Below, piece by piece: positions 2,281-49,073 of a stretch of 64,000 nucleotides of DNA. Each line of letters starts with the position of its first letter. Within the stretch, counting starts at the first letter, position 1. Made by a program: the position numbers and the translations under genes. The notes beneath the pieces are model-generated. The model searched no databases, had not been told where the DNA came from, and saw only the letters and a list, made by a program, of their open reading frames with translations. The stretch comes from Roseiflexus sp. (lineage in GTDB: Bacteria > Chloroflexota > Chloroflexia > Chloroflexales > Roseiflexaceae), in contig JAGHYV010000002.1 of NCBI GenBank assembly GCA_017743475.1, forward strand, positions 13,844-77,843, in the 5' to 3' direction.

Positions 2281-3566
2281 CTACAACTGCTGCCGCTGCG
2301 CCAGTGCATACGCGATGCCCTGTTGCAGACTGCGCAGCGCAATCATATCCTGCATTTCGGCGCCAATATGCACCAGCGTCTGTGCAACCTCGGCACTGAT
2401 GCCGCTGAGCACAACGCGCGCGCCCAGCATCCGCGCCGCCTGTGCTGCCCGGATCAGCGCGCCAGCGACCTGTGTATCAACTACTCTGACGCCTGTAATA
2501 TCCAGGATGGCAATATCAGCGCAATGGGTCGCAATGCCTTCGAGCAGTGTTTCCATAATCTGCTGCGCGCGGCGGCTATCAATCGTACCGATAATCGGCA
2601 TTACCACCACCCCTTCGGCAATCGGCATCAGCGGCGTACTCAGTTCACGCAGCGCCGCCTGTTGCGCCTCGATCACTTCCTGTTGCAGCGCACGTTCACG
2701 AATGGCTTCTTCCGCGCGTCGTCGCAGCGTGATGTCGGTAAACGACACCATACCGTACACAATGCGTCCCTCTGCATCCCGAATCGGCGCGCCGTGGATC
2801 TCGATCAGTATCCGACCATCAGGGCGCTCGATCTCCATATCATCAACTGATGACGTCTCTCCACTCAATGCGCGTACCAGCGGCATACGCTCTGTAGGGT
2901 AGAGTTGATCAGTTCCGGCTACAAAAGCACGATAAACCTCGGCGAGTTGCCCGACGGTGACGTCGGACATAATACCTTTGCCAAGTATCTCAATAGCGCT
3001 GCGGTTAGCATAGAAGGGACGCCCGTCCGGTTCGACGACGAAGACTCCGACCGGTAGCGCATCGAGAAAGCGGAGCAGGCGTTGCTCACTGTCGCGCAGC
3101 GTCGCTTCGACCCTGCGACTCTCGCTCATATCGCGCATAATTGTCGAGTAGTGGGTGATTGCTCCGTCAGCATTTTTGTGCGCAATGATGACCTGTGAAA
3201 CCGGAATTTCCCTCCCCTGCGGGTCGAGCACTGCCGTATTGCCGCTCAAACCCCCTCGCGTGCAGCGTGCGGCAATCCCTGGTTGAGGATCAGATCGGCT
3301 GCCCAGGCTGGATGAAACTGGGGAATGCGCGGCTCTTCCGACAGAGTATCCACCTCGCCGAGTAGACGCCGACCGGCCGGATTGATGAAGATCACCCGCC
3401 CTTTGCTGTCGGCGGTGCTGATCACGTCTGGTGTATATTCGATAATCGCCTTCAGTCGTTCAGTGACTTCATCATCCTGCTGACGCTGCGCTAGCAATGC
3501 CTCAAGTTCGGCAACGCGACGGCGCAGGCGTTCCAGTTCGTCAGCAGGATCATTCGGGGATGACAT
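2281..3566 (-). pseudogene. PAS-PAS-STAS (RsbR-like anti-anti-sigma/stressosome-type) sensor split by a 1-nt frameshift
   Basis: ORF 3246-3566 (coiled coil plus first half of a PAS) ends AREGV*. ORF 2281-3249 continues SGNTAVLDPQGREIPVSQVII, a second PAS, then STAS (LSTPLMPIAEGVVVMPIIGTIDSRRA...DITGV). The junction GTT TG AGC is one G short of GTT TGG AGC (V-W-S). Confidence 0.8.
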
Positions 3567-3690
3567 ATGGGTTGCTCCTGATTGCTATCGTTGAGCCTGT
3601 TTGCTTGCTGACGCAAGTTTAAGCGATCCCGGCAAAAATGCAATGTCCTGTCTGCTACATGGGATTGGTTTAATGAAGATTTGGAGAATT

Positions 3691-3763
3691 ATAATCCGGT
3701 ATGCTGAACTGACTGTGAAGCTAAAATCCTCGGCTATCTAAGGCAAAGCCTGCCTGTGCGGGC
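3691..3763 (-). repeat. REP-like unit (GCCCGC...GGCTTTG...TTCGGCATACTGGATT family)
   Basis: The reverse complement GCCCGCACAGGCAGGCTTTGCCTTAGATAGCCGAGGATTTTAGC...GTTCAGCATACCGGATTAT matches 44720-44790 and 45988-46015. Confidence 0.7.
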
Positions 3764-3780
3764 TAGAGCGGACTGTGTAT

Positions 3781-4054
3781 TCAAAGACTATCAGACAGTC
3801 GAGCCGAGGGGAGGACGTACTGCCAGGCCCAGGCACGCTGAGAGTTGGGGTGTTGACGCCCCAGAGAGTCAGGCAGGGAGAGCAGGGCGCTCAGAACCCG
3901 GTTCTGGGGAGAGGCGGCGACGTGTTCATTGATGGCCGGGTGGGTGAGGAAGGCTTCGACTTCGGGTGCACCCGGTTCGTTGGGATGCCGTTTGCCGTAG
4001 AAGAAGGATAGAGCGCCGAATCTAGCCCACATAAGAGTTCTCGGTGCGGATGGA
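3781..4054 (-). pseudogene. intI: Integron integrase (IntI) remnant
   Basis: Across frames it reads [54 protein letters not shown] (IntI N-terminal domain), joined directly to [28 protein letters not shown] (the IntI-specific insertion). It has a nonsense codon at 4022-4024, a frameshift and a large internal deletion. Confidence 0.85.
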
Positions 4055-4106
4055 GCGGAAGCAAAATCCATCACCATCTACTGGATAAGACCACACAAGG
4101 GATGAG

Positions 4107-4337
4107 ATGGCTCGTCGTCAGATCACCGGGGACGATGTGGTCAAAGTTCTCATCGCCCCAGAGCAAACGGCAGTTATCCGCGAAGGCCGGGAGGTCTATC
4201 AATCTCGTTTTCAGGCTGGCGAACCACCCAAAACGCATCTGCTCCGCGTCTTTGTAGATATTGACCGCACTCCCCCAGAAGTGGTGACAATGTATCGAAC
4301 AAGCAAGGTTGCGACGTACTGGAGGACAGAAACATGA
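4107..4337 (+). CDS. DUF4258-family putative toxin (N-terminus probably truncated)
   Basis: MARRQITGDDVVKVLIAPEQ...LLRVFVDIDRTPPEVVTMYRTSKVATYW; stop overlaps the DUF2283 start (ATGA). The in-frame upstream HTRDE resembles the lost HARDE motif. Confidence 0.7.
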   Translation: MARRQITGDDVVKVLIAPEQTAVIREGREVYQSRFQAGEPPKTHLLRVFVDIDRTPPEVVTMYRTSKVATYWRTET

Positions 4338-4537
4338 AAGTGATTTATGACCTTGAGACCGATACGCTCACGATTATCTTTGCCGAGACTCCGGTGGCCG
4401 AAAGGAAGATAAGCCGGGGGGTGATTCTGGACTACGATGCTTCTGGTAATCTGGTCTCGCTGGAAATCCTCGACGCTTCACGTCGCGTCACTTTGCCGAG
4501 CTAGATTGAGTATCAAGTCGCCCTCGTGTCGGGGTGA
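4334..4537 (+). pseudogene. DUF2283-family putative antitoxin, decaying
   Basis: MKVIYDLETDTLTIIFAETPVAE...GVILDYDASGNLVSLEILDAS. A compensated frameshift hides EDKPG, and TAG at 4502-4504 is followed by in-frame IEYQVA (likely CAG>TAG). Confidence 0.75.
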
Positions 4538-4675
4538 CATGCAAATGACGGGTGATTGATAAAAGGATAGAACACCGGGAAGCCACAAGGCAGCCTTACA
4601 CCGCATCCGACTGCCCCGCGCTGTGCACTCGATTAACTGGCCAGTCCTGCTCGCAGGCGTTCGGGTTAACGTCTT

Positions 4676-4773
4676 TCCAGACCCACGCAGGCAGCTGACG
4701 CGCGAGCAACTTATCTTCATTTGCCACCGTTCCGCCTCGAGACCCGCGCGGGCAGCTGACGCATGTGTTAGAC
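4676..4773 (+). other. attC-like recombination site (degenerate)
   Basis: R'' TCCAGAC (4676), L'' CAGGCAGC (4688), inner stem CAGCTGACGCGCG/CGCGCGGGCAGCTG, L' GCTGACG (4755), R' GTTAGAC (4767-4773). Confidence 0.65.
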
Positions 4774-4777
4774 CCCT

Positions 4778-5087
4778 ATGGCTACTTCGCAGACTGTGTC
4801 AGATTGAACCCTGGCTAATCCAGTGGGACTCCCGAGGCAATCCTTACTTGTGGGCGGAAATGTCCGAGGTGCCTGCTGGCGTCCCGCTGCCTCCAACAGA
4901 AGGTGAGTTGGTGCAACTTCTCGAGCATACGTTCGCCCGGCTCGTTAGAGCGCCGATAGGGTCGCCCGAATCGTCCATTTTCGTTGAGCGTTACTGTCAC
5001 AGTGGCATGTCTACAGGTCTGATCAGTTTTGCCTTCTGGCAAGAAATTGGGTTGCCACTCTCGCGGGCTCGCTATCTCGGAGCCTGA
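4778..5087 (+). pseudogene. Integron cassette gene of unknown function (~100 aa, apparent frameshift near 4800)
   Basis: ATG lies 4 nt after the attC R' core (MATSQTV), then the frame shifts into the ORF-track frame QIEPWLIQWDSRGNPYLWAE...RARYLGA*. The TGA lies inside the next attC R'' (GCCTGAC). Confidence 0.55.
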
Positions 5088-5136
5088 CAATTCGTCCGAG
5101 CCAATACTGCGCCGCAGTGTAACTCGGGCGTTAGAG
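5082..5136 (+). other. attC site (short, aadA7-like type, degenerate)
   Basis: GCCTGACAATTCGTCCGAGCC...ACTGC-GCC-GCAGT...TAACTCGGGCGTTAGAG resembles the classic GTCTAACAATTCATTCAAGCC...TAATTCAAGCGTTAGAC (16/21 and 13/16 by my alignment against the remembered consensus). Confidence 0.75.
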
Positions 5137-5215
5137 CTTTTCCGAATAACCCGGTGACTTGCACGGCGATCACGCCACAAGCGACAGGGAGAAAGGCAGG
5201 ATACTGGATAGGCTC

Positions 5216-7357
5216 TCACTGCCGTGTATCAATCCGGCTACGCATATCGAGCGCAAACAGACGCACACTGATCGGAGCGCCAGCGCGCGCGGGATCAGGG
5301 GTGGCAGGCGCCTGCAATGTCAGAACGTGCTGACCGGGAGGAAGCAGGAGGTGCAGTGTGCGCGCCGGTGCGCGTCCGGAAAGAATATCGAACGTGCCTA
5401 GAGACGCGCCATCCAGCGACCAGGTGAGTGGTCGTGGATGGGCATATGCTTCCAGCCAGCATGTGAGGCGCACAGGCGTCGGAGCAGGAGAAGGGTTGAA
5501 CAGACGCACCTCAGCCCGCTCTCCCATCCAACGCCAGCGAACGTCGCTGTCAGGCTGGCGTTCAAGCGGTTGCCAACCCTCCCCCAGAAATGCAATCGGT
5601 GAAACGGGCCAGGTATCCGGCATTGCGTAGACCTCCAGCGTTTCATCAACAAAGATCGGCGGCGGTATGCCCAGATCAGCCAGCAGGGGACGCACGCGCG
5701 CAAAATACTCGTCCTTATTGCTCTCCAGGTCCATCGTGATGTAGCGGATGCGGTATGCAGCAAGCGCCCGTCGTCCGGATTCGGGCCACGTGGGTAAAAC
5801 CACGTCATGTCGCTCGACTTCGCCGAACTGGATGTCGCGTATGCCCGGAGTGTACTGCGCAAATGGGTATGCTGGCGGACGAGCGACATACCCGCCGATA
5901 ATTGGCCATCTGTGAACCATTTGGGGCGTCAGATTTTCGCTGCGATTGATGTTGATGTACAGCGGCAGCGGCATCAGCGCGCCATCGGGCGGCGGAAGCG
6001 TTGCGTAGAACGGGTGGATGCGGCGCTCGACGATAGGGTGAGGTCCGGCATAGCCGTCGATGCCCACAACTGCAGCAATCAACACTGCCACAGCAATCCA
6101 CGCGCGTCTCCGTGAGCTACGAAACAGGCGCGTTTGCAGCCCCGCTCGCACGCCGTATGCCGCCAGTACCGCCAGACACAGGCTGACCATCACTGCCATG
6201 TGGTTGGGGCGCTGCCCGGCGCGGATGCCTGGCAAATCCTGAATCAGAGCGTACGGCAGCGGCAGACCGGTATGCCAGCCAGCGATCTTCAACTGTGGTC
6301 CCAGCGCCAGCAGCAGACACGCCAGCGCCAGCAGAACCCAGCGCCACGCATTGCGTCTGAAGGCGAGCGCGCCCACCGTTCCCAGGCTCAACGCCACCCA
6401 TCCCAGCGCCACGTTCCAGATGGGCGCATCGGGATAGATCTGGTTGCGCCAGGCGCGCACTGCCGGACCCCACCACGGATTGACCGGGCTTGGCAGAAAC
6501 ATATCGACCAGGTCGGCGGAGCGTTCGTACTGCACCTGACGCATGTCCCACATTCCATCTTCTGCGCGCGTTGCCAGGCTGCTCAGCGCTGGCGCCAGCG
6601 CCAGCACCCAAACGATAAGCGGGGACGTCCCCCACGCAAACACCCGCGCTCCTTGCAGCACCCGCTGATTGTGCTCAGATGAACGAAAGGCCCCACACCC
6701 CCAGATGCACGCCGCGCATCCAGTATAGAGGGCGGCAAACAGTCCGTAGTACCAACTGCCCAGACTGACCCACACAAGCATTGCCCCGGCTGCCAGCGCC
6801 CAGCGCCACGATGGGCGTTCGAGGAGCAGCAGCAGGGTATAGGCGTACCACGGAAGCCAGTGGATGGCGGCGACTTCCAGATTGCCGTCGATCACTTTTT
6901 CCACGTGATAGGGCGAACAGACAAAGGTGGCGCCGGCAACCAATGCGGCTCGTTCGTCGCCGGTCATCCGCCGTGTGAATAAGAACGTTGCGTATCCGCC
7001 GATGGTGAAACTGGTGAGCACGACCCAGTTCACCGCAGCAATCGATCCGAGGGTAAGGGTCACCGGCAGTGCCAGGATGCCCTGGCTGAAGCCGATAGGC
7101 TGCCAGAAGAGATCAATGCCGTCCGGGTAGAAGAGCAACGGAGAAAAAAACGGGTTGCGCAGCGACGTGATTGCATATGCGATCCACCACAGGTTCCAGG
7201 CGTTCTGATAGGCGTCAACACCATCGACAGCGCCAATAACGCCGCGTGTCAGGTTGATCGTCAGCGGCCAGGTGAGGATCACGCCGAGGAACGAGTAGAC
7301 TGCCAGGGAGATCAGGTGGAAATGTATGCCTATCATCGAAGTGCGCTGTGCATCCAT
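5216..7357 (-). CDS. Multi-pass membrane GT-C-like protein (YfhO/PMT-like) with C-terminal GxGW..E..RW beta module
   Basis: ORF 5216-7438, probable start at 7357 or 7336. Contains YQNAWNLWW, LFYPDG, many TM segments, PIIGGYVARPP and LGEGWQPLE...RWRW; paralogous to 23801-25975. Confidence 0.75.
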   Translation of the reverse strand: MDAQRTSMIGIHFHLISLAVYSFLGVILTWPLTINLTRGVIGAVDGVDAYQNAWNLWWIAYAITSLRNPFFSPLLFYPDGIDLFWQPIGFSQGILALPVTLTLGSIAAVNWVVLTSFTIGGYATFLFTRRMTGDERAALVAGATFVCSPYHVEKVIDGNLEVAAIHWLPWYAYTLLLLLERPSWRWALAAGAMLVWVSLGSWYYGLFAALYTGCAACIWGCGAFRSSEHNQRVLQGARVFAWGTSPLIVWVLALAPALSSLATRAEDGMWDMRQVQYERSADLVDMFLPSPVNPWWGPAVRAWRNQIYPDAPIWNVALGWVALSLGTVGALAFRRNAWRWVLLALACLLLALGPQLKIAGWHTGLPLPYALIQDLPGIRAGQRPNHMAVMVSLCLAVLAAYGVRAGLQTRLFRSSRRRAWIAVAVLIAAVVGIDGYAGPHPIVERRIHPFYATLPPPDGALMPLPLYININRSENLTPQMVHRWPIIGGYVARPPAYPFAQYTPGIRDIQFGEVERHDVVLPTWPESGRRALAAYRIRYITMDLESNKDEYFARVRPLLADLGIPPPIFVDETLEVYAMPDTWPVSPIAFLGEGWQPLERQPDSDVRWRWMGERAEVRLFNPSPAPTPVRLTCWLEAYAHPRPLTWSLDGASLGTFDILSGRAPARTLHLLLPPGQHVLTLQAPATPDPARAGAPISVRLFALDMRSRIDTRQ

Positions 7358-9331: not shown

Positions 9332-9492
9332 GCATAATGTTGGCCCCTCCGCGTCGTTGTCGCCGCGTGGGTGACAACAACAGTTGCGTATCTCCACGTT
9401 TATGCCGACAGTCAGGCGACGTTGTTTCCCCGCCCTCTGTTTCTCGACCCTGTACGCCGCTTTCCAAATCAACAGAAGTCGCCCAACCTTGA

Positions 9493-9520
9493 TTGACACG
9501 TGCGTATCGTTCTGTATACT
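9493..9520 (+). promoter_or_regulatory. Sigma70-type promoter of the His-rich gene
   Basis: TTGACA (9493-9498), 16 bp, TATACT (9515-9520). Confidence 0.6.
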
Positions 9521-9578
9521 AGAGGTAACAGACGCAGGCGCGCCGGATGAGCCTGCCAGGTGGAAAGGAGCCAGAGTG

Positions 9579-9902
9579 ATGTCGCATACGGTTCACGAAC
9601 CGCATCCTCATGTCCACAGCGAGCATTGTGGGCACATTCGCATTCTTCACGACGGGCACGTGGATTATCTGCATGACGGACATCTGCACTACCCGCACGA
9701 GGGGCATTATGATGAGCATGTAATTGCAGTCAGCGCCGATAACCCCGATATCTGCGCTCCCATTGCATGCCAGTGCGGACATGATGGATGCGGACATCCA
9801 CTTGTTCCACATGGTGACCACTACGACTATCTGGTAGATGGACGTTTGCATCACTCCCACGGTGATCACTGCGATGACCATGGTCCGGTGACTGTGGTGT
9901 AG
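9579..9902 (+). CDS. His/Cys/Asp-rich small metal-binding protein with an internally duplicated motif
   Basis: AAGGAG RBS. Two copies of CGH...H(D/G)(G/D)HxDYLxDGxLHxxHxxHxDxH in 107 aa. Confidence 0.8.
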   Translation: MSHTVHEPHPHVHSEHCGHIRILHDGHVDYLHDGHLHYPHEGHYDEHVIAVSADNPDICAPIACQCGHDGCGHPLVPHGDHYDYLVDGRLHHSHGDHCDDHGPVTVV

Positions 9903-23801: not shown

Positions 23802-25975
23802 TATCGTTTGGATTCCAACACATAGTCGGCAATGCGGACCTTCAACGCTGCAATGCTCAACTCACGCCGGGATTGCGGGTCAAACGTCGTCGGCGCGTGC
23901 AGGCGCAATTGGGTCTGTCCCGGCGGCACGGTCAATCCTGTGCGATAGGTGCGCACCGGGCGCTGCACGTCCCAGTGCGCGATCAGGCGCTGATCATGCC
24001 ACAGTTCTACCGGGCGCGGCGTCTCGTAAGACGCCAGGGTCAACGCCAATGTCATATGGATTGGCGTATCATACGGGTTGACCAGCCAGAGCGTGTTGTC
24101 GGCGCTGCCCCAGCGGTGCAGACCGTTATCGTTGCGCTCTACGCTGTCCCATCCTTTGCCTGCATAAACGAAGGGACGGCAGGCGTTGGCGAACAGGGGC
24201 AGTTCGTACCAGCGATACTGCGCATCCTCATACTCTGGTGTCGGCACGTGCCCGATCAACATCCTGAGCGTCTCCGCGACCTGTTCCTGCTCACGCGCCG
24301 TTGTCAGGTCGGTGCGCACTACCACGTGGCGCACCGGCGCGAAACACTGCATCGCTCTGAGCGTGGACGGATCGAGCGGTACAACATCTTGCTGCAATGC
24401 TCGCATCGTCCCGATAGTGTACAACAGCGGCATGTTAAAGCTGTCGTATGCCGGTCGCCGCGCGATGAACCCGCCGATGATCGGTTGACCATGCACCATC
24501 TGACTCCGTAATGTGCGGCTCGTTTCGAGCACATCGAGCGGCAGGTCGGCGACGGCGCCGGGGCGCGCTGCAATTTGTTCATAAACTGCCGGGCGCTCCA
24601 ACGGCAGGAAGACGCGCTCTGGCGGGAGCCAGAGTTCGAACAACCCTGCCATCACTGCCCCTGCGATTGGCAGCATGCGCCAGGCATCTGGCGTCCCCTG
24701 GCGCAACTGCGCCAGCCCCTGTGCCGCTGCTATGCTCATCACCATTAGCACCGGCGCGATAAACAGCGCTGGCTTGCGCGCCGTCCCAAAGAGCGGAAGC
24801 CGATCAAGCAGCGCATATGGCATCGGGATGCCCGTATCCTTCCCCAGCACGTGCAAACCGGGACCCATCGCCAGCACCCAGAGCACGATGGCTGTGAGTG
24901 CCAGGTGCCGCTCGCGCCGCCAGACGGTTCGTGCGCCGAGAATCGCCAGCGCCATCAGGGTCCATCCCGCCGGAACGTACCAGACGCTCGGAGTAAAGTG
25001 TTCGGCTATCGGACGCATCCACTGCTCGACCTGCGCTCCCCACAGCGGGTTGTACACATTCGGAAAGAATAATCCGAACAGGTCGACCGACGAGTTGTAG
25101 ACATATAGTTCCCGGATGGCATCGCGCGTCTGGTGACCTATCGGTAATACGTCACGCCGCATAAGCATCCCGGCGAGAAACGGCGCCAGCAGGATCAGCG
25201 TTCCCATCGCAAACAGTGCATAACGGCGGGCGAGCATCCGTCGCTCACGAACCGCTGCGAACCGTGCAGCCATCCATACAATCGTCAGCACGCCGCAGAT
25301 CGACGCCCAGTACCAGTCGGAAAGCACGACCAGTGCGGCGATTGCCGCAGCGCACGCAATGCGCCAGCGCTCCCCGCCGCGATCCAGCAGCGCCAGGGCG
25401 TAGATATAGAACGGGATCCAGTGCAGGCTGAACAGGTTAAGGTGGCTGTTCTGCAACTGTGCGATGTGGAACGGTCCAAGCGTAACCAGCACACCGCACG
25501 CCAGCGCCTCCCAGAATCCGCGCACGTAGTGATAGGTCAGCAGAAAGACGCCAAACCCGGTCAGCGCAAAACCCAGCAGCACCGCCGTGTTAAACGCTGC
25601 GACCGGACCCGCCAGCAGATAGATCGGCAGCGTAAGCACCGCATTTGGCGCGCCCAGCGTTTGCACATACAACTGTACGCCGTCCGGGTAGAAGAGCAGG
25701 TCGGTCCAGAACGGGTTGATGCCGTTCAGGATCGCCTCGCTCACCCACCAGAGATGCCACAGATGCAATCCAGCTTCTTCGCTGCCAGCAAAGTCGAATC
25801 GCCCTGGAGCGCCGTCAATCCCGCCGAACAGAAGTCGGTCGAAGTGCAACGCCAGGGGCCAGGTGACAATCAGCGCCAGCAGCACGTAGCATCCGAGCGC
25901 CAGCGCATAGATGGCGGCGATGCGGCTGCTGGAAGGAGCCGCCCGCTCAGCAGACGAGCGCGTCGACCGCTTCAT
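23801..25975 (-). CDS. YfhO-like GT-C membrane protein with C-terminal GxGW..E..RW module
   Basis: WHLWWV, LFYPDG, GPFHIA and PIIGGFIARR; paralog of 5216-7357. Confidence 0.75.
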   Translation of the reverse strand: MKRSTRSSAERAAPSSSRIAAIYALALGCYVLLALIVTWPLALHFDRLLFGGIDGAPGRFDFAGSEEAGLHLWHLWWVSEAILNGINPFWTDLLFYPDGVQLYVQTLGAPNAVLTLPIYLLAGPVAAFNTAVLLGFALTGFGVFLLTYHYVRGFWEALACGVLVTLGPFHIAQLQNSHLNLFSLHWIPFYIYALALLDRGGERWRIACAAAIAALVVLSDWYWASICGVLTIVWMAARFAAVRERRMLARRYALFAMGTLILLAPFLAGMLMRRDVLPIGHQTRDAIRELYVYNSSVDLFGLFFPNVYNPLWGAQVEQWMRPIAEHFTPSVWYVPAGWTLMALAILGARTVWRRERHLALTAIVLWVLAMGPGLHVLGKDTGIPMPYALLDRLPLFGTARKPALFIAPVLMVMSIAAAQGLAQLRQGTPDAWRMLPIAGAVMAGLFELWLPPERVFLPLERPAVYEQIAARPGAVADLPLDVLETSRTLRSQMVHGQPIIGGFIARRPAYDSFNMPLLYTIGTMRALQQDVVPLDPSTLRAMQCFAPVRHVVVRTDLTTAREQEQVAETLRMLIGHVPTPEYEDAQYRWYELPLFANACRPFVYAGKGWDSVERNDNGLHRWGSADNTLWLVNPYDTPIHMTLALTLASYETPRPVELWHDQRLIAHWDVQRPVRTYRTGLTVPPGQTQLRLHAPTTFDPQSRRELSIAALKVRIADYVLESKR

Positions 25976-25979
25976 AACG

Positions 25980-27977
25980 TTACTTGCTTTCCGTAGCGGT
26001 GTAATCTGCAAGCTGCACCTTTAATGCCGTAACACTTAACTCACGCTGCGACTGCGGGTCATACGTCGTCGGCGCACGCAGGCGCAATCGGGTTTGTCCC
26101 GGCGGTGCGGTCACTCCTATGCGATAGGTGCGCATTGGGCGCTGCACGTCCCAGCGCGCGATCAGGCGTCGATCGTGCCACAGTTCCACCGGGCGCGCCG
26201 TCTCGTAAGACGCCAGGGTCAACGCCAGCGTCATATGGATTGGCGTATCATACGGGTTGACCAGCCAGAGCGTGTTGTTGGCGCTGCCCCAGCGATAGGC
26301 TAAGGAACCGGCATATTCAGTAGCATACCAGCCTCTTCCCAGCGCAACCCATGGACGGGAGCGATCAAGAGTTGATTCTTCGGGTCGATCTCTGTGGTTG
26401 CATTCTATTACCATGCCTAATTGCCCTGGTGATGTAATACGCTTGCAACTTAAATCAGGATAGCGACTCTCCAGGAGACGCTGTACGTTTGCATCATTTG
26501 TAAACACGTATATGGGCTTCTTTGATCGAATCCAGCTCTTCTTTATTTCTAGGTTAGGAGATTTATGCCATTCTTTTAATGTTTTTCCGTAAATTTCTAA
26601 CCAATAGTCGAGATATCTCGGCATTGCCATCTTATCCCACTTGTGAATTATGAAGATAGATTCCTCCTGGCAAATCTCAGCAAACTCTTTCATAAGTGCG
26701 GATGGTTTATAATAATTCTGGTAATAATTGTTTGTAATGTCTTGTAAATGCCTTCCAGATTCTAAATTTGATAGCAGGATTCTATCGCGATATACTACTG
26801 AAAAAGTAAATGAGATGATAGCGGCAAGAAAGATCAATACGAGAGAAATAGAAGTAAATCGAACATCGAAACCTTTGATTGCTTCTTTCAGAGATATACC
26901 CCCGATCATAGAGAAAGGGATGACTAATGGAATAAATGTTCGGTCAAACGGTTTGTCACCCCTAAGAGCACTCAATAAGAATGGAAGCACCATTAATATC
27001 AGAAGTAGGTAAAATCCACTGTAATCCTGATTTTTATCCCTAAAAATCTTTATAAGTCCATATAATACTGGTAAGAGTAGTAACCATCGTTTTGAGATGA
27101 GATGTCCCAAAAATGCAGGCATAAGTTCTGTTATTGTGCTCAAGTTGGGCATTCCTGATGTTCTTGTCATATTATTGTCGATAACTTTTGGAAGGATAGG
27201 GATATACCAGACTGTAGCGACGGCGATGCCCGACACAACCATGACCGCCAGCTCTATCTCGCGGTTGGATGTTAATCTTCTGTCAGGTTGGGCATATTTA
27301 TTTCTAGACCGCGAAAACAGATACCTCGATAACCAATAAATAAAAATAGGTGCGGTAACGTAGATATTTGATGGTATGGTGTAAAAGAGCAAAGAAGTTA
27401 GTGCCACGACCAAAAACCCACTTATTCTACTTCCACTCCTATAATAATGCAAGTTATAGTATAAGATCATTCCGAGCAGTGTCATGCTCAAAGTATAGCC
27501 TCTGACCTGGACAGTAAAGTTTACAGAAGGCAGGGTTGATCCCAAGATAATAACTGCAAGAAATCCCGCTAACGGATCAAAAAAGTCTCTTACAGTCCTA
27601 TAAACATATACAAACGTCAAAAATGTGTAAAACAACATTAGTATGCGAATTTTCCAGGGTTCTCTGAGCAGGTCGAAATCATCGATGCCAAGCCCGTACA
27701 GGTAAAGGTGGTTTAGTATGTTGGCGAAAATATGATTATTTGGTGCGCGATAGTCGGTTACAATCGTTGAGATCGGAACAAACACAAAATGATGTAGTGT
27801 ATAAATCTCGTCATACCAGAAATCGAGATTGATGTATGCAGCAACGACATAAATAAGCCATGGTAGCGCAGCAGCGCATGCTATCAGCGTCCACGCAAAC
27901 TCTGAGCGAGAAGACAAACTCTTTGCAGTTTTGTCTGATAATGCGAGTAGGGCGGACATGCCTGTATGCGAATTCAT
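25980..27977 (-). CDS. Chimeric GT-C (PMT/ArnT-like) membrane protein: low-GC body plus duplicated native C-terminal module
   Basis: DFWYDEIYT, NNHIFA and VQVRGYTL motifs. Sampled lines 26521 and 27001 are 32% and 30% GC. The last ~105 codons closely match those of 23801-25975. Confidence 0.8.
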   Translation of the reverse strand: MNSHTGMSALLALSDKTAKSLSSRSEFAWTLIACAAALPWLIYVVAAYINLDFWYDEIYTLHHFVFVPISTIVTDYRAPNNHIFANILNHLYLYGLGIDDFDLLREPWKIRILMLFYTFLTFVYVYRTVRDFFDPLAGFLAVIILGSTLPSVNFTVQVRGYTLSMTLLGMILYYNLHYYRSGSRISGFLVVALTSLLFYTIPSNIYVTAPIFIYWLSRYLFSRSRNKYAQPDRRLTSNREIELAVMVVSGIAVATVWYIPILPKVIDNNMTRTSGMPNLSTITELMPAFLGHLISKRWLLLLPVLYGLIKIFRDKNQDYSGFYLLLILMVLPFLLSALRGDKPFDRTFIPLVIPFSMIGGISLKEAIKGFDVRFTSISLVLIFLAAIISFTFSVVYRDRILLSNLESGRHLQDITNNYYQNYYKPSALMKEFAEICQEESIFIIHKWDKMAMPRYLDYWLEIYGKTLKEWHKSPNLEIKKSWIRSKKPIYVFTNDANVQRLLESRYPDLSCKRITSPGQLGMVIECNHRDRPEESTLDRSRPWVALGRGWYATEYAGSLAYRWGSANNTLWLVNPYDTPIHMTLALTLASYETARPVELWHDRRLIARWDVQRPMRTYRIGVTAPPGQTRLRLRAPTTYDPQSQRELSVTALKVQLADYTATESK

Positions 27978-42109: not shown

Positions 42110-43123
42110 ATGACAGACCTGGCGCTTACTGGGGTTGCGGAAGCGTGGGCGGCAGCGCAGCGTTCTCGCCGCAAGCCGCTGGCACCGTCCACTGTCGAAA
42201 CCTACTGTGACGCATGGCGCTCATTCGCGCTATGGGCGCAGCGTGAAGGACGGCGCACTGTCGCCGATATCCGTGCAACCGACCTGGGAGCCTGGATCGA
42301 ATCACTGACTGATCTGGCAGACGGAACGGTGTTGACCTATGGTCACGGGGCGCTGGCAATCTGCAAATTCCTTGCCGATCGCGGTTGCCTTCAGTGTGAT
42401 CTAGCGCTGGTTCGTCTGCACCTGCGTGACGCCCTTCCCCGCGCCTACGCAAGTCGCGCGCCTGATGTCCCCGATCTGCGCAGACTGGTCTCATTCTACG
42501 ATGGTGAATTACCGCCAGTCGAACCAGGGCGCCGCGGTGAGCGTGATCGGCTCAACAGGCTCCGCAATGCTGCGCTTCTGCACACCCTCTTTTCTACCGG
42601 TGCGCGCATCTCCGAAGTGTTGAGCCTGAATGTGGATGATGTTCTCACCGACGATGGCAGTGTCGCCCCCCGCGCATTCGTGGTCGGAAAAGGACAACGA
42701 CGACGCGCCATTTTTTTGCGTGACCATGCGCAGCGAGCAATTGCGCGCTACCTGACGGTGAGACGCACTGCCTTTCCCCACGCCGAAGCGCTCTTCATTT
42801 CGCACGGACCGCGCGGCGCTGGCGGGCGCCTGGGGCGTATTGCCGCCTGGAGTATTGTGACCGATGCGGCGAGTGCCATTGCCAGTCAGGTCGAGCGGGA
42901 AGGGCGCACCCGTGAAGCGCGCGCGCTGCGTACTGTTACGCCACATACGTTTCGGCATTTTGTTGCGACCTGGTTGCTCAACGAAGGCGTACAACTCTCC
43001 GAAGTCTCGGCGATCCTGGGGCATGCCAATACCCGGATCACTGAGCAGTACTATGCGCGTCACACTGATGAACGATTACAGGAGCTGCATGACCAGTTCG
43101 CGCCGGATCCGGAATCGTTATAA
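42110..43123 (+). CDS. Tyrosine recombinase (XerC-like/phage integrase family)
   Basis: RNAALL...STGARISE, GKG, HTFRH, LGH and C-terminal YY; GAGAGGA RBS. Confidence 0.88.
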   Translation: MTDLALTGVAEAWAAAQRSRRKPLAPSTVETYCDAWRSFALWAQREGRRTVADIRATDLGAWIESLTDLADGTVLTYGHGALAICKFLADRGCLQCDLALVRLHLRDALPRAYASRAPDVPDLRRLVSFYDGELPPVEPGRRGERDRLNRLRNAALLHTLFSTGARISEVLSLNVDDVLTDDGSVAPRAFVVGKGQRRRAIFLRDHAQRAIARYLTVRRTAFPHAEALFISHGPRGAGGRLGRIAAWSIVTDAASAIASQVEREGRTREARALRTVTPHTFRHFVATWLLNEGVQLSEVSAILGHANTRITEQYYARHTDERLQELHDQFAPDPESL

Positions 43124-44657: not shown

Positions 44658-44790
44658 GCCCGCGCGGGCGAGCTTTGTCCTGTAGATGTGAGAGCTTGTT
44701 TGGCAATTATTCCGCTTTCGCCCGCACGGGCAGGCTTTGCCCCGTAGAGTCGACGGCTTTAATCCCGTGACCAGTTCGAGATACTGGATT
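44658..44790 (+). repeat. Tandem REP-like units (partial 44658-44696, full 44720-44790)
   Basis: GCCCGCGCGGGCGAGCTTTG and GCCCGCACGGGCAGGCTTTG...GGCTTTAATCCCG...TTCGAGATACTGGATT, homologous to 3691-3763. Confidence 0.7.
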
Positions 44791-47981: not shown

Positions 47982-48923
47982 TTACTTTTCCTCCGGAACG
48001 AGCGCCTGCTCGTTGATCACGCCATTGACTTCGGTGGCGCGCGGTTCCGACCGTAGTGGTTGCGCCGACGATGCGTGGTTGATGTAGGTGTAGATTTGCG
48101 TCGTCGAAATCGACGTATGCCCCAACAGTTCCTGCACAGCGCGCAGGTCGGCGCCAGCGTTGAGCATATGCACTGCGAACGAATGACGCAGCACGTGCGG
48201 CGTCAGGTCGCCAAGCCCCATTTCTTCGGCGTACTGTTTAAGGATCAACCAGAACCCCTGACGTGTCAGACGCTTGCCACGATGGTTGAGGAACAGCGCG
48301 TCGGTTGGCGCATCATTCCCACGGGCAAGCTGGCTGCGACTGTTATCACAGTACTCTTCCAGCGCAGTCACTGCGGATTCATTGATCGGCAGGACGCGTA
48401 CGCGACTGTTTTTACCGGTGCAGCGCACAGTGCCCCGTACCAGGTCGATGTCAGTCATATTCAACGCCACTAGTTCACTTACCCGCATCCCGGTGGCGTA
48501 CAGCAGTTCGAGCATCGCCTTATCCCGGATGCGCTCTGGTGTTGGCGAACGCAACGGCAACTCCAGCAGTTCGTCTACCTGGTGCGGAGTCAGCGCACGT
48601 GGCAGATCGCGATCAACCTTTGGCGAATCGATCCGCTTGGTTGGATCGTGTGGGACGACGCCGCTTCTAGTCAGGAACGCGAAGAACGACTTTACTGCTG
48701 CAACTCTGCGTGCAACTGTCGAACTGGCATAGCGACGCTCGCGGAGATAAAGCATAAATGCCAGAATATCATCGTGCGAAACATCACACCATTCGCGCCG
48801 ACTTCTTGCGCTCACAAAGTCGCAGAATTGATCGAGATCGGTACGATATGCCGCGATAGTATTGGCGGCAAGATTGCGTTCGTCTGCGAGGTACTGCAGA
48901 AACGCTTCAATCTGATCATTCAT
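47982..48923 (-). CDS. xerD: Site-specific tyrosine recombinase XerD
   Basis: ERNLAANTIAAYRTDL, RDKAMLELLYATGMRVSEL, LTRQGFW, TPHVLRHSFA and LLGH..ISTTQIY. Confidence 0.9.
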   Translation of the reverse strand: MNDQIEAFLQYLADERNLAANTIAAYRTDLDQFCDFVSARSRREWCDVSHDDILAFMLYLRERRYASSTVARRVAAVKSFFAFLTRSGVVPHDPTKRIDSPKVDRDLPRALTPHQVDELLELPLRSPTPERIRDKAMLELLYATGMRVSELVALNMTDIDLVRGTVRCTGKNSRVRVLPINESAVTALEEYCDNSRSQLARGNDAPTDALFLNHRGKRLTRQGFWLILKQYAEEMGLGDLTPHVLRHSFAVHMLNAGADLRAVQELLGHTSISTTQIYTYINHASSAQPLRSEPRATEVNGVINEQALVPEEK

Positions 48924-49073
48924 AGTCTCTCCAGCGCCCTGCCGGGATCCAGCATAGATGGCAGACCACATTCTGATAATCTATAAGCATCTTTGCTGGC
49001 AGATGCGCATAGTGTACAACAGTGCATTGTGATGCTCGATGTCTGCGCATGGTACTGCAAGGCTTCCGATGTG

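What the first reader, a model, noticed from the sequence alone, without database searches (positions are those of the whole stretch)
3781..5136. Fossil chromosomal integron: intI remnant with a divergent cassette array
Seen: IntI-diagnostic segments (SIRTE..YV.W.RR..F.GKRHP, and the LPD.L.R..P...W.WQY.LPS insertion) with the catalytic core deleted. A divergent DUF4258/DUF2283 pair, a cassette ORF whose stop lies in an attC R'', and two attC sites follow. Established: integrons place intI divergent from cassettes and often carry TA cassettes. Inference: a deletion removed the intI 5' end, attI and the start of the first cassette. Standard annotation would miss all of this.
Basis: partly seen in the sequence, partly recalled or inferred. 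Interest (0 to 1): 0.72.

Follow-up and report, generated by a model that had tools for sequence, protein, structure and literature searches.

The report
Decayed integron remnant in hot-spring Chloroflexota
This is the wreck of an integron (a bacterial gene-capture device): a gutted integrase gene, a toxin-antitoxin pair, an orphan gene and one surviving recombination site. It is a known kind of genomic fossil, but unusually well documented because sister populations keep different pieces of it.

Summary
The core of the finding is right. On the minus strand, 3781-4054 is an integron-integrase (intI) pseudogene. It keeps the N-terminal SAM-like segment and the IntI-specific patch. About 119 central codons and the whole C-terminal catalytic third are missing, and it also carries a stop codon and a frameshift. 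Sister alleles from hot-spring metagenomes still hold the missing pieces. One keeps the 361-nt central segment, and its read-through scores 180 bits on TIGR02249 integron integrase against 35 bits for XerC. Another keeps 308 bp with the intI start and a conserved TTGACA-17-TATAAG motif; the window lost these at 4054|4055.

I built an attC covariance model from 20 unrelated real attC sites. It gives one hit in the whole 64 kb, at exactly 5082-5136 (+): 17.2 bits here and 30-31.6 bits in orthologous alleles. Unseen true attCs score 31-36 bits.

The second proposed attC (4664-4773) is not supported in any allele. DUF2283 is solid; DUF4258 is below the Pfam threshold. The pair is under purifying selection across relatives but looks relaxed in this lineage.

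The whole ~1.55-kb island (3672-5218) is absent from an abundant sister population. This is a known kind of object and of moderate interest.

The parts
3672..5218 (.). Whole variable island: integron remnant plus two dispersed small elements. It is absent from an 'empty-site' allele.
   Evidence: DNA metagenome contigs join 3671 to 5222 (4 nt, GCTA, between) and 3660 to 5222 (25 nt between). Depths are 347, 263 and 1660. In run X16 this is the dominant form, 1660 against 317.
3742..3765 (+). Element A: a GC-rich hairpin of a dispersed repeat family (REP-like). It sits at the truncated 3' end of intI.
   Evidence: Rfam CRISPR-DR28 scores 32.9 bits, below the gathering score of 35, and there is no array. 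A second copy lies at 44711-44741(-). DNA depth is roughly 30-60 times that of the flanks.
3781..4054 (-). intI pseudogene. It holds IntI aa ~24-81 (4054-3879) fused to aa ~201-232 (3882-3787). There is an in-frame stop at 4022-4024 (W to *), a frameshift near 4005, an internal ~357-nt deletion at ~3879-3881, and no C-terminal catalytic region.
4054..4055 (.). Junction of a lineage-specific 308-bp deletion. It removed intI codons 1 to ~23, the intergenic region with a conserved TTGACA-17-TATAAG motif, and any attI.
   Evidence: L028 3329-3638 has no counterpart in the window. The motif is invariant in L028, L055, L048 and L050.
4107..4337 (+). Putative toxin, 76 aa, DUF4258-like (BECR/RelE-ParE superfamily). 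It is the first gene of the first presumed cassette.
   Evidence: Pfam PF14076 scores E 1.1e-3, below its cut-off. 58 related loci almost always have DUF2283 immediately downstream. dN/dS is 0.13-0.30 against relatives but 1.98 against L028.
4334..4504 (+). DUF2283 putative antitoxin, 56 aa, overlapping the toxin stop (ATGA). This lineage carries a compensated frameshift (ERKISR in place of ESDEDKP) and an earlier stop.
   Evidence: Pfam PF10049 scores E 1.6e-14. The indels +CGAT and -1 appear.
4505..4698 (+). Non-coding tail that travels with the TA pair. It is shared with L028 and L051, and in diverged form with L061.
   Evidence: Local alignment of L061 350-520 to window 4531-4698 scores 48, against a shuffle maximum of 35.
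4664..4773 (.). Hairpin made of two 26-nt direct repeats (4676-4701, 4737-4762), flanked by GGTTAAC and GTTAGAC. It is not supported as an attC.
   Evidence: L028 has AAC changed to AGC plus a 6-bp insertion. The region is deleted in L051- and L055-type alleles.
4860..5087 (+). Orphan cassette ORF: 75 aa from the ATG (the mechanical ORF runs 4623-5087). Its stop codon TGA lies inside R''.
   Evidence: The only homologue among 5.8 billion proteins is the orthologue P0014. There are no Pfam, NCBIfam or PADLOC hits. The upstream half is out of frame in L028.
5082..5136 (+). attC site, 55 nt: R'' GCCTGAC, spacer AATTC, L'' GTCCGAGCC ... L' AAC, spacer TCGGGC, R' GTTAGAG. It is degenerate: the right arm lacks the complement of GAGCC, and R''/R' form 4 Watson-Crick pairs and 1 wobble out of 7.
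   Evidence: Its sequence resembles the aadA1 attC retrieved.
5131..5218 (.). Element B: an 88-nt dispersed palindromic element with 13-nt terminal inverted repeats (TTAGAGCTTTTCC / GGATAGGCTCTCA). It starts at the attC crossover point G|TT, and its right end supplies the TGA stop of the 740-aa gene.
   Evidence: DNA depth is 7-17 times that of the flanks. RNA contigs with differing flanks reach depths up to 24,618. Fold z is -2.3 and -2.5. There is no second copy in the window.

Best explanation
The region is the remnant of an integron in a Roseiflexus-like Chloroflexota bacterium from hot-spring microbial mats.

The inferred original layout was: intI on the minus strand; an intergenic stretch with a promoter reading towards the cassettes, and presumably attI; a toxin-antitoxin cassette (DUF4258-like plus DUF2283); and an orphan-gene cassette ending in an attC site.

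Inferred order of decay:
1. intI lost its C-terminal catalytic third. All alleles share this, and a REP-like element now sits at the break.
2. Different lineages then lost different pieces by ordinary deletion.
3. The window's lineage shares with L028 the loss of about 119 central codons.
4. It then lost a further 308 bp on its own. That removed the intI start, the candidate promoter and any attI.

Nothing here can recombine any more. There is no integrase, and no other intI in the 64 kb. The single attC left is degenerate and has no partner site. In this lineage the cassette genes look as if they are drifting, so the block most likely has no function as an integron and is on its way to loss. 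One abundant sister population lacks it altogether.

Shown: the family identity of the intI pieces, the attC, the deletions relative to sister alleles, and the presence/absence polymorphism. Inferred: the order of events, the role of the promoter, and the silence of the cassettes in this lineage.
For: intI identity. Only integron-integrase models hit the remnant. The patch aligns to the IntI-specific insertion that the window's XerD lacks. The read-through of the longer pseudogene in L049 scores 180.1 bits on TIGR02249 (E 6.5e-53, profile positions 52-224 of 315) against 35.5 bits for XerC. Its closest relatives are proteins named integron integrase from Chloroflexi, Caldilineae and Anaerolineae MAGs, at 60-67% identity.

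attC. Model R1 was built from 20 real attCs, none from this organism. The orthologous sites score 30.0 bits (L028/L029) and 31.6 bits (L051). True attCs not used in training score 31-36 bits (dfrA14, dfrA17, aadA5), and an environmental one scores 32 bits (L014).

Geometry. intI is divergent from the ORFs. The attC is on the ORF strand, and the ORF stop lies in R''.

Cassette-array behaviour. In L061 the same TA pair and its tail are followed by a HicB/HicA pair whose stop abuts a canonical attC (28.7 bits).

Nested deletions.

Relaxed constraint. dN/dS against L028 is 0.11-0.16 for flanking genes, 1.98 for the toxin, 0.79 for the antitoxin, 1.22 for the orphan ORF and 0.62 for the intI remnant. 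Five or six toxin replacements are unique to the window's branch, and the antitoxin carries a compensated frameshift.

No other intI in the window. The two intact tyrosine recombinases are XerD (337 bits on TIGR02225) and a Xer-like protein.
Against: - Only one attC is detectable, so the TA pair cannot be shown to be a cassette in the strict sense.
- The window's own attC scores only 17.2 bits. In my searches that range held both true degenerate sites and false hits.
- The R' box TTAGAG of the attC coincides with the terminal repeat of dispersed element B. Part of the score may therefore be borrowed from B.
- attI is not identified.
- The promoter motif has G at the last -10 position and is not reported by the consensus scan.
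- The dN/dS values rest on 7-12 substitutions per gene.
- The metatranscriptome data say nothing about the window's allele. It was not the abundant lineage in the runs examined.
- The model's E-values are rough, because calibration was shortened.
Confidence: 0.85

Rival explanations
1. Origin variant. The block did not decay in place from a long-resident chromosomal integron. It arrived by horizontal transfer as an already truncated integron fragment, inserted between the PAS/STAS gene and the 740-aa gene. On this reading the empty-site allele is the ancestral state.
For: An empty-site allele exists with clean junctions and is dominant in one metagenome. More distant relatives (55-73% identity in the 740-aa protein) have no intI, TA or orphan ORF within the flanks available. 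All alleles share the same 3' truncation of intI. No intact orthologue is found; the nearest IntI is 67% identical. Dispersed elements A and B sit at both ends of the block.
Against: The empty allele could equally be a deletion, and this locus plainly deletes often. The nearest IntI relatives are Chloroflexota, which fits vertical descent. Synteny on the PAS side is not conserved in the distant relatives, so they cannot show which state is ancestral. The block has no terminal repeats of its own.
Confidence: 0.3
2. The 4664-4773 hairpin is a second attC. It would be too degenerate, or too atypical, for my small model to detect, and would mark the end of the TA cassette.
For: R'' GGTTAAC is a genuine R'' variant; dfrA27 and dfrA1 use it. 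R' GTTAGAC is canonical. The 110-nt length is in range. The stem-loop has z -2.3. It lies where a cassette boundary is expected. L028 has a 74-bp indel starting 3 bp after the R' box (window 4777-4850).
Against: There is no covariance-model support on the cassette strand, and only 5 bits on the opposite strand, from the R boxes alone. There is none in the alleles scanned with filters off either. The spacing is wrong: 14 nt with its own mini-hairpin on one side and ~1 nt on the other, where the consensus is 5 and 6. The arms are direct repeats that pair only through internal palindromes. In L028 the invariant AAC is AGC, with a 6-bp insertion next to it. The TA tail shared with L061 ends inside the structure, not at its R'. 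It has no similarity to attC2.
Confidence: 0.15
3. The TA pair is still an active addiction module in this lineage. That, rather than neutrality, would explain why the block persists. The amino-acid changes would then reflect co-evolution of toxin and antitoxin, not decay.
For: Both ORFs are intact. The antitoxin's two indels restore the frame. The pair is under purifying selection across relatives: toxin dN/dS 0.13-0.30, antitoxin 0.0-0.3. TA cassettes are known to stabilise integron arrays; this point is cited in PMC2426708.
Against: The conserved upstream promoter-like motif is deleted here. Six non-synonymous and one synonymous change separate the window toxin from L028, nearly all on the window's branch. 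The antitoxin's conserved acidic stretch ESDEDKP is replaced. A sister population lives without the block.
Confidence: 0.25
4. It is not an integron at all. On this reading it is a remnant of a generic phage or Xer-type integrase next to a TA island, and the attC-like hit is a chance match or a by-product of element B.
For: The window's attC score is marginal: 17.2 bits, E 0.076 over 64 kb. R' overlaps B's terminal repeat. Most distant homologues of this TA pair have no attC or intI nearby.
Against: Integron-integrase profiles beat Xer profiles by about 145 bits on the fuller allele. The IntI-specific patch is present. The orthologous attCs score 30-31.6 bits, like real ones. The 48 nt left of the crossover match the attC consensus on their own. 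The left flanks of other B copies do not resemble attC2.
Confidence: 0.03

Closest known systems
intI pseudogenes / 'pseudo-integrons' in bacterial chromosomes (Nemergut et al. 2008, PMC2426708; pseudogenes near CALIN in Cury et al. 2016, PMC4889954)
   Same: An integron integrase disabled by stop codons, frameshifts and large deletions, still lying next to cassette-like genes. About one third of the chromosomal intI genes surveyed are pseudogenes. Chloroflexi is a phylum already known to hold integrons.
   Different: The decay here goes further than usual. No PF00589 catalytic domain is left, so the IntegronFinder pseudogene screen (at least 50% coverage of intI_Cterm or PF00589) would probably not flag it. 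The same pseudogene persists across lineages that differ by 8-20% in DNA, whereas that paper notes that pseudogenes are usually not shared between close relatives.
IntegronFinder classes: complete integron, In0, CALIN (PMC4889954)
   Same: It has an attC recognised by a covariance model, an intI relative, divergent orientation, and a cassette ORF ending in the attC.
   Different: It fits none of the three classes. There is no callable intI (so not complete and not In0), and only one attC (CALIN needs at least two).
aadA-type ~60-bp attC sites of class 1 integron cassettes (aadA1, aadA2, qacL, gcuF)
   Same: The sequences are strikingly alike. Window: GCCTGACAATTCGTCCGAGCC...AACTCGGGCGTTAGAG. 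aadA1: GTCTAACAATTCGTTCAAGCC...AACTCAAGCGTTAGAT. The box order and spacers are the same.
   Different: R'' has GAC instead of the AAC that is invariant in my 20 seeds. The right arm lacks the complement of the L''-proximal stem. At 55 nt it is shorter than any of my 20 seed sites (60-135 nt). Recombination activity was not tested.
Integron integrases of Chloroflexota MAGs (for example 'Chloroflexi bacterium RBG_16_57_9' and Caldilineae and Anaerolineae bacteria; P0015, P0019, P0018)
   Same: These are the best protein matches to the read-through of the fuller allele: 60-67% identity over 98% of 174 aa.
   Different: Those proteins carry PF00589. No intact protein closer than 67% was found.
Toxin-antitoxin cassettes in chromosomal integrons
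   Same: A two-gene overlapping toxin-antitoxin module sits as the integrase-proximal unit. A second TA pair (HicB/HicA) with its own attC follows in allele L061.
   Different: DUF4258 toxins have no known activity (PMC11980606). The match here is below the Pfam threshold. No attC can be assigned to this pair.

Membership tests
Integron (intI + attI + Pc + cassettes with attC) | Integrase of the IntI clade with the IntI-specific additional domain (patch) | tested here: met
   Present as a pseudogene. Only IntI models hit it. The patch aligns to the IntI insertion that XerD lacks. The fuller allele scores 180 bits on TIGR02249 against 35 bits for XerC.
Integron (intI + attI + Pc + cassettes with attC) | Functional tyrosine-recombinase catalytic domain (PF00589; box I Arg, box II His-x-x-Arg, Tyr) | tested here: not met
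   The window lacks IntI aa ~82-200 and everything after aa ~232. Box I survives only in L047/L049/L051. Box II and the Tyr are absent from every allele.
Integron (intI + attI + Pc + cassettes with attC) | At least one attC site recognised by a structure-aware model, on the cassette strand, next to intI | tested here: met
   5082-5136 (+) is the only hit in 64 kb. Its orthologues score 30-31.6 bits, within the range of unseen true attCs. The model is my own 20-seed model, not IntegronFinder's.
Integron (intI + attI + Pc + cassettes with attC) | attI site at the intI-cassette junction | not testable with these tools
   No attI is described for this integrase lineage and no consensus exists to search with. 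In the window the junction is deleted at 4054|4055. No canonical GTTRRRY lies in the retained segment of L028.
Integron (intI + attI + Pc + cassettes with attC) | Promoter (Pc) directing transcription into the cassettes | tested here: inconclusive
   It is absent from the window. Sister alleles have TTGACA-17-TATAAG facing the cassettes, invariant in four alleles that otherwise differ. The motif fails the consensus scan's rule for the last -10 base. Transcript ends were not mapped.
Integron (intI + attI + Pc + cassettes with attC) | Cassette content varies between related arrays | tested here: met
   The same TA pair and tail are followed by the orphan ORF plus attC here, and by HicB/HicA plus a different canonical attC in L061.
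CALIN (cluster of attC sites lacking integrase) | At least two attC sites within 4 kb | tested here: not met
   Only one attC is found. 4664-4773 and 4567-4665 score 5 bits or less.
attC site | R''/R' and L''/L' inverted boxes (RYYYAAC ... GTTRRRY) forming a bulged hairpin of the bottom strand | tested here: inconclusive
   The boxes and spacers are present and match the consensus. However, R'' is GCCTGAC, R' ends in G, and R''/R' form only 5 of 7 pairs. The stem next to L' is missing. The free-energy fold is not better than shuffles (z -0.16 and -1.25). This fits a decayed site.
DUF4258/DUF2283 toxin-antitoxin pair | Both proteins reach the Pfam gathering score | tested here: not met
   DUF2283 scores 54.2 bits against a cut-off of 23, which passes. 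DUF4258 scores 19.6 bits against 25, which does not.
DUF4258/DUF2283 toxin-antitoxin pair | Conserved two-gene operon with overlapping or adjacent ORFs, under purifying selection | tested here: met
   The ORFs overlap at ATGA. The pair is conserved in nearly all of 58 related loci. dN/dS is 0.0-0.3 between lineages.
DUF4258/DUF2283 toxin-antitoxin pair | Toxicity of the first protein and neutralisation by the second | not testable with these tools
   This needs expression tests. The activity of DUF4258 toxins is listed as unknown in PMC11980606.

The most novel reading that the evidence does not exclude
Dispersed 88-nt element B begins exactly at the G|TT crossover point of the attC. This could record an integrase-mediated joint between an attC and a secondary site at the end of a mobile miniature element. 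Alternatively, B could be a small element that inserts at attC cores. Either way, B would have shaped or terminated this array. Together with the series of nested deletions and the empty-site allele, the locus would then be a natural time series of integron death in one hot-spring population.
Probability: 0.1. Interest if true: 0.5.

Novelty: new member of a known kind. Interest (0 to 1): 0.3.

Why it matters
Decayed integrons are common but seldom caught in several stages at once. Here co-occurring hot-spring populations each hold a different remnant. One keeps the integrase centre, one the integrase start and promoter region, and one the attC. One has nothing at all.

Two practical points follow for integron surveys. 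First, remnants like this fall through all three IntegronFinder classes, so integron turnover in Chloroflexota is probably under-counted. Second, an attC can stay recognisable long after its integrase has gone.

The locus could also serve as a population-genetic marker for Roseiflexus-like lineages in mats.

It does not change what is known about how integrons work.

Tried and rejected
- A home-made attC finder (R'' xxxxAAC, R' GTTRRRY, constrained DNA folding) produced about 160 candidates per strand. Coding-region hairpins ranked on top, and it missed attC2 because R'' is GAC. I dropped it in favour of a covariance model.
- I looked for a second attC by similarity to attC2 within 4505-4860. 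Nothing exceeded the shuffle controls.
- Rfam gave no family over threshold in the window. The only near-hit is the CRISPR-DR28-like hairpin. There are no tRNA or tmRNA genes.
- PADLOC gave no hit for the toxin, the antitoxin or the orphan ORF.
- The first protein search, with the 93-aa remnant, returned only fragments. Their contigs are mostly other broken intI genes and gave little help with attC.
- The genome-collection scan with the 740-aa neighbour found relatives at 73% identity or less, without conserved synteny. It could not show which state of the island is ancestral, and the source genome itself was not among the representatives.
- Metatranscriptome contigs at 95% identity or more do not cover 3596-5223. 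At 80% or more they cover sister alleles only. There is therefore no evidence either way on expression of the window's allele.
- The consensus promoter scan does not report the TTGACA-17-TATAAG motif, because it requires T at the last -10 position.
- I checked whether element B is repeated in the window or in the loci I searched (L003, L011, L012, L014, L015, L028-L043). Only orthologous copies turned up.
Full report
WHAT IS THERE

Reading 3560-4140 on the minus strand gives '[16 protein letters not shown]'. After a frameshift near 4005 it continues '[42 protein letters not shown]' and runs straight into '[32 protein letters not shown]'.

- Pfam sees the phage-integrase SAM-like N-terminal domain (PF13495, E 1e-6).
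- In NCBIfam the only families that hit are the two integron-integrase models: TIGR02249 (E 1.4e-18, two stretches) and PRK15417. No Xer model appears.
- tblastn with an annotated integron integrase from a Kovacikia plasmid maps aa 30-81 to 4035-3874 and aa 201-232 to 3882-3787.
- In a multiple alignment, the second piece lies on the IntI-specific insertion ('[23 protein letters not shown]' in IntI1). The window's own XerD has a gap at that position.

About 119 central codons and everything after aa ~232 are missing. The two intact tyrosine recombinases elsewhere in the window are XerD (47982-48971, 337 bits on TIGR02225) and a Xer-like protein (42110-43123). Neither is an IntI.

TESTING THE attC SITES

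No attC model is in Rfam, so I built one.

- I took 15 attC sites from class 1 integron cassettes on plasmids, one from a Candidatus Tenderia plasmid and four from the Kovacikia plasmid integron. I aligned them.
- I checked the R''/R' and L''/L' pairing on the seeds. 78% of cells are paired, none of 500 shuffles reaches that, and the slid controls are far lower. I then built covariance model R1.
- Over the whole window, both strands, R1 gives a single hit: 5082-5136 (+), 17.2 bits, E 0.076. With filters off on 3500-5500 the E-value is 0.0024.
- Controls: true attCs that were not in the training set score 36.1 bits (dfrA14), 34.5 (dfrA17) and 31.4 (aadA5). An environmental attC beside another broken intI scores 32.2 bits (L014).
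- The orthologues of the window site in sister alleles score 30.0 bits (L028/L029) and 31.6 bits (L051).

The site is therefore a genuine attC, and the window's copy is the most decayed version. Its sequence closely resembles the aadA1 attC:
GCCTGACAATTCGTCCGAGCC...AACTCGGGCGTTAGAG (window)
GTCTAACAATTCGTTCAAGCC...AACTCAAGCGTTAGAT (aadA1)
However, the right arm lacks the complement of GAGCC. The fold is no better than shuffles.

THE SECOND PROPOSED attC (4664-4773) FAILS

- It gets nothing on the cassette strand. On the opposite strand it gets 5.0 bits (E 1.8 in 2 kb), from the R boxes alone. None of the alleles scanned with filters off gives a better hit in the corresponding region (highest 6.5 bits).
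- It is a real structure: two 26-nt direct repeats that pair through internal palindromes, unique in the window.
- Its spacing is not that of an attC.
- In L028 the invariant AAC is AGC, with a 6-bp insertion beside it.
- It has no similarity to attC2.
- A weak hit at 4567-4665 (4.8 bits) is not significant either.

THE GENES BETWEEN intI AND attC2

- 4107-4337 and 4334-4504 overlap at ATGA. The second is DUF2283 (E 1.6e-14). The first matches DUF4258 only below threshold (E 1.1e-3).
- DUF4258 is listed as a BECR-fold RelE/ParE-superfamily toxin family of unknown activity (PMC11980606).
- The orphan ORF's only homologue among 5.8 billion proteins is its own orthologue. Only its last ~78 codons stay in frame in L028, so the likely gene is 4860-5087. 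Its TGA stop sits inside R''.

SISTER ALLELES SETTLE THE INTERPRETATION

The locus occurs in many hot-spring and microbial-mat metagenomes. I recovered related alleles through the orphan protein and through a metagenome scan with the toxin.

- L028 (92% identical in DNA) holds 308 bp that the window lacks at 4054|4055. These contain the intI start (MKPRPKKLLDQV..., with frameshifts) and ~230 bp of intergenic DNA.
- That segment carries TTGACA-17-TATAAG facing the cassettes. The motif is invariant in four alleles that differ around it.
- L047/L049/L051 hold 361 nt that the window lacks at ~3880. They encode IntI aa 82-200 with box I (LLYGSGLRLME) and 'VRDSKGDQDR'. The read-through scores 180 bits on TIGR02249 against 35 bits for XerC. 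It is 60-67% identical to integron integrases of Chloroflexota MAGs.
- L055-type alleles keep IntI aa 14-99 and the intergenic segment. They lack 4556-4982 and 5076-5205, so they have no attC.
- All alleles lack the IntI C-terminus.
- DNA contigs from three metagenomes join 3671 directly to 5222. This is an empty site, and it is the dominant form in one run.
- In L061 the same TA pair and its ~170-nt tail are followed by a HicB/HicA pair ending in a canonical attC (28.7 bits). The TA pair therefore also sits in a real cassette array.

SELECTION

- Against L028, the flanking genes have dN/dS 0.11-0.16. The toxin has 1.98, the antitoxin 0.79, the orphan ORF 1.22 and the intI remnant 0.62.
- Against more distant alleles the toxin has 0.13-0.30 and the antitoxin 0.0-0.3. 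The pair is a real, constrained module in general.
- Five or six toxin replacements and a compensated antitoxin frameshift are specific to the window's branch. That branch is also the one that lost the 308-bp upstream segment.
- I infer that the cassettes are silent or drifting here. The counts are small, and no RNA data bear on this allele.

ORGANISM AND CONTEXT

The neighbouring 740-aa protein is 73% identical to one in a Roseiflexus sp. MAG and 55-66% identical to others in Chloroflexota MAGs. All runs that hold the sequence are hot-spring, mat or related metagenomes.

COMPARISON WITH WHAT IS KNOWN

intI pseudogenes make up about a third of chromosomal intI genes. Integrons are already recorded in Chloroflexi (PMC2426708, PMC4889954). 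This is a further example of that kind.

It fits none of IntegronFinder's three classes.

OPEN POINTS

- Whether the block decayed in place or arrived already truncated.
- Whether the 4664-4773 hairpin is anything more than debris.
- What the two dispersed elements at the ends of the block are.

Element B (5131-5218) has 13-nt terminal inverted repeats. It is high-copy in DNA and abundant in RNA contigs. It starts exactly at the attC crossover point. The left flanks of its other copies do not look like attC ends, so I treat the coincidence as unexplained.

Noticed in passing
window 5131-5218: An 88-nt palindromic element (B) with 13-nt terminal inverted repeats (TTAGAGCTTTTCC / GGATAGGCTCTCA) and fold z of about -2.4. 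Many metagenome and metatranscriptome contigs with different flanks match it at 80-90% identity. DNA depth is 7-17 times that of the flanks, and RNA contig depth reaches 24,618. It starts at the G|TT crossover of the attC, and its right end provides the TGA stop of the 740-aa gene.
   Followed up: partly
window 3742-3765 (+); second copy 44711-44741 (-): A GC-rich hairpin, GGCAAAGCCTGCCTGTGCGGGCTA, matches Rfam CRISPR-DR28 at 32.9 bits, just under the gathering score of 35. There is no array. In DNA metagenomes its depth is roughly 30-60 times that of the flanks, and the neighbouring sequence is partly conserved. It looks like a REP-type dispersed repeat rather than CRISPR. It sits at the truncated end of intI.
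   Followed up: partly
window 3672-5221 against metagenome runs X12, X14, X16: An empty-site allele joins the PAS/STAS upstream region directly to the end of the 740-aa gene. It has two variants, with 4 nt or 25 nt at the joint. It is dominant in one hot-spring metagenome.
   Followed up: partly
L061 810-1272: A HicB-like (72 aa) and HicA-like (62 aa) pair, identified by eye from the sequences, whose stop abuts a canonical attC (CCCTAACAAACCGCTCCAGCGG...CCGCTGACCTAAATCGTTGGGC, 28.7 bits). It lies downstream of a close relative of the window's TA pair, so this is a live-looking cassette array in a related organism.
   Followed up: partly
L011/L012/L013 (protein P0004, 145 aa): Another integron integrase with a large internal deletion that fuses the N-terminal domain directly to the C-terminal '[28 protein letters not shown]'. 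It lies next to flagellar genes in an unrelated MAG. A 17.9-bit attC-model hit lies just past the neighbouring gene in L011 (46-171).
   Followed up: no
window 23876-26002 (-): A paralogue of the 740-aa membrane protein (30% identity over 740 aa). Related MAG contigs carry three or four tandem paralogues of this family (L033, L034, L035). The family has only a weak PMT_2 glycosyltransferase-like Pfam hit.
   Followed up: no
window 9384-9902 (+): A 172-aa ORF whose C-terminal part is very rich in histidine, with repeated HDGH / HxxHGDH motifs. It may be a metal-binding protein. I saw it only in the ORF list.
   Followed up: no
window 4404-4416: Relative to every other allele, the window's antitoxin gene has a 4-nt deletion (CGAT) and a 1-nt insertion 12 nt later. 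Together these restore the frame but replace the conserved ESDEDKP with ERKISR.
   Followed up: yes
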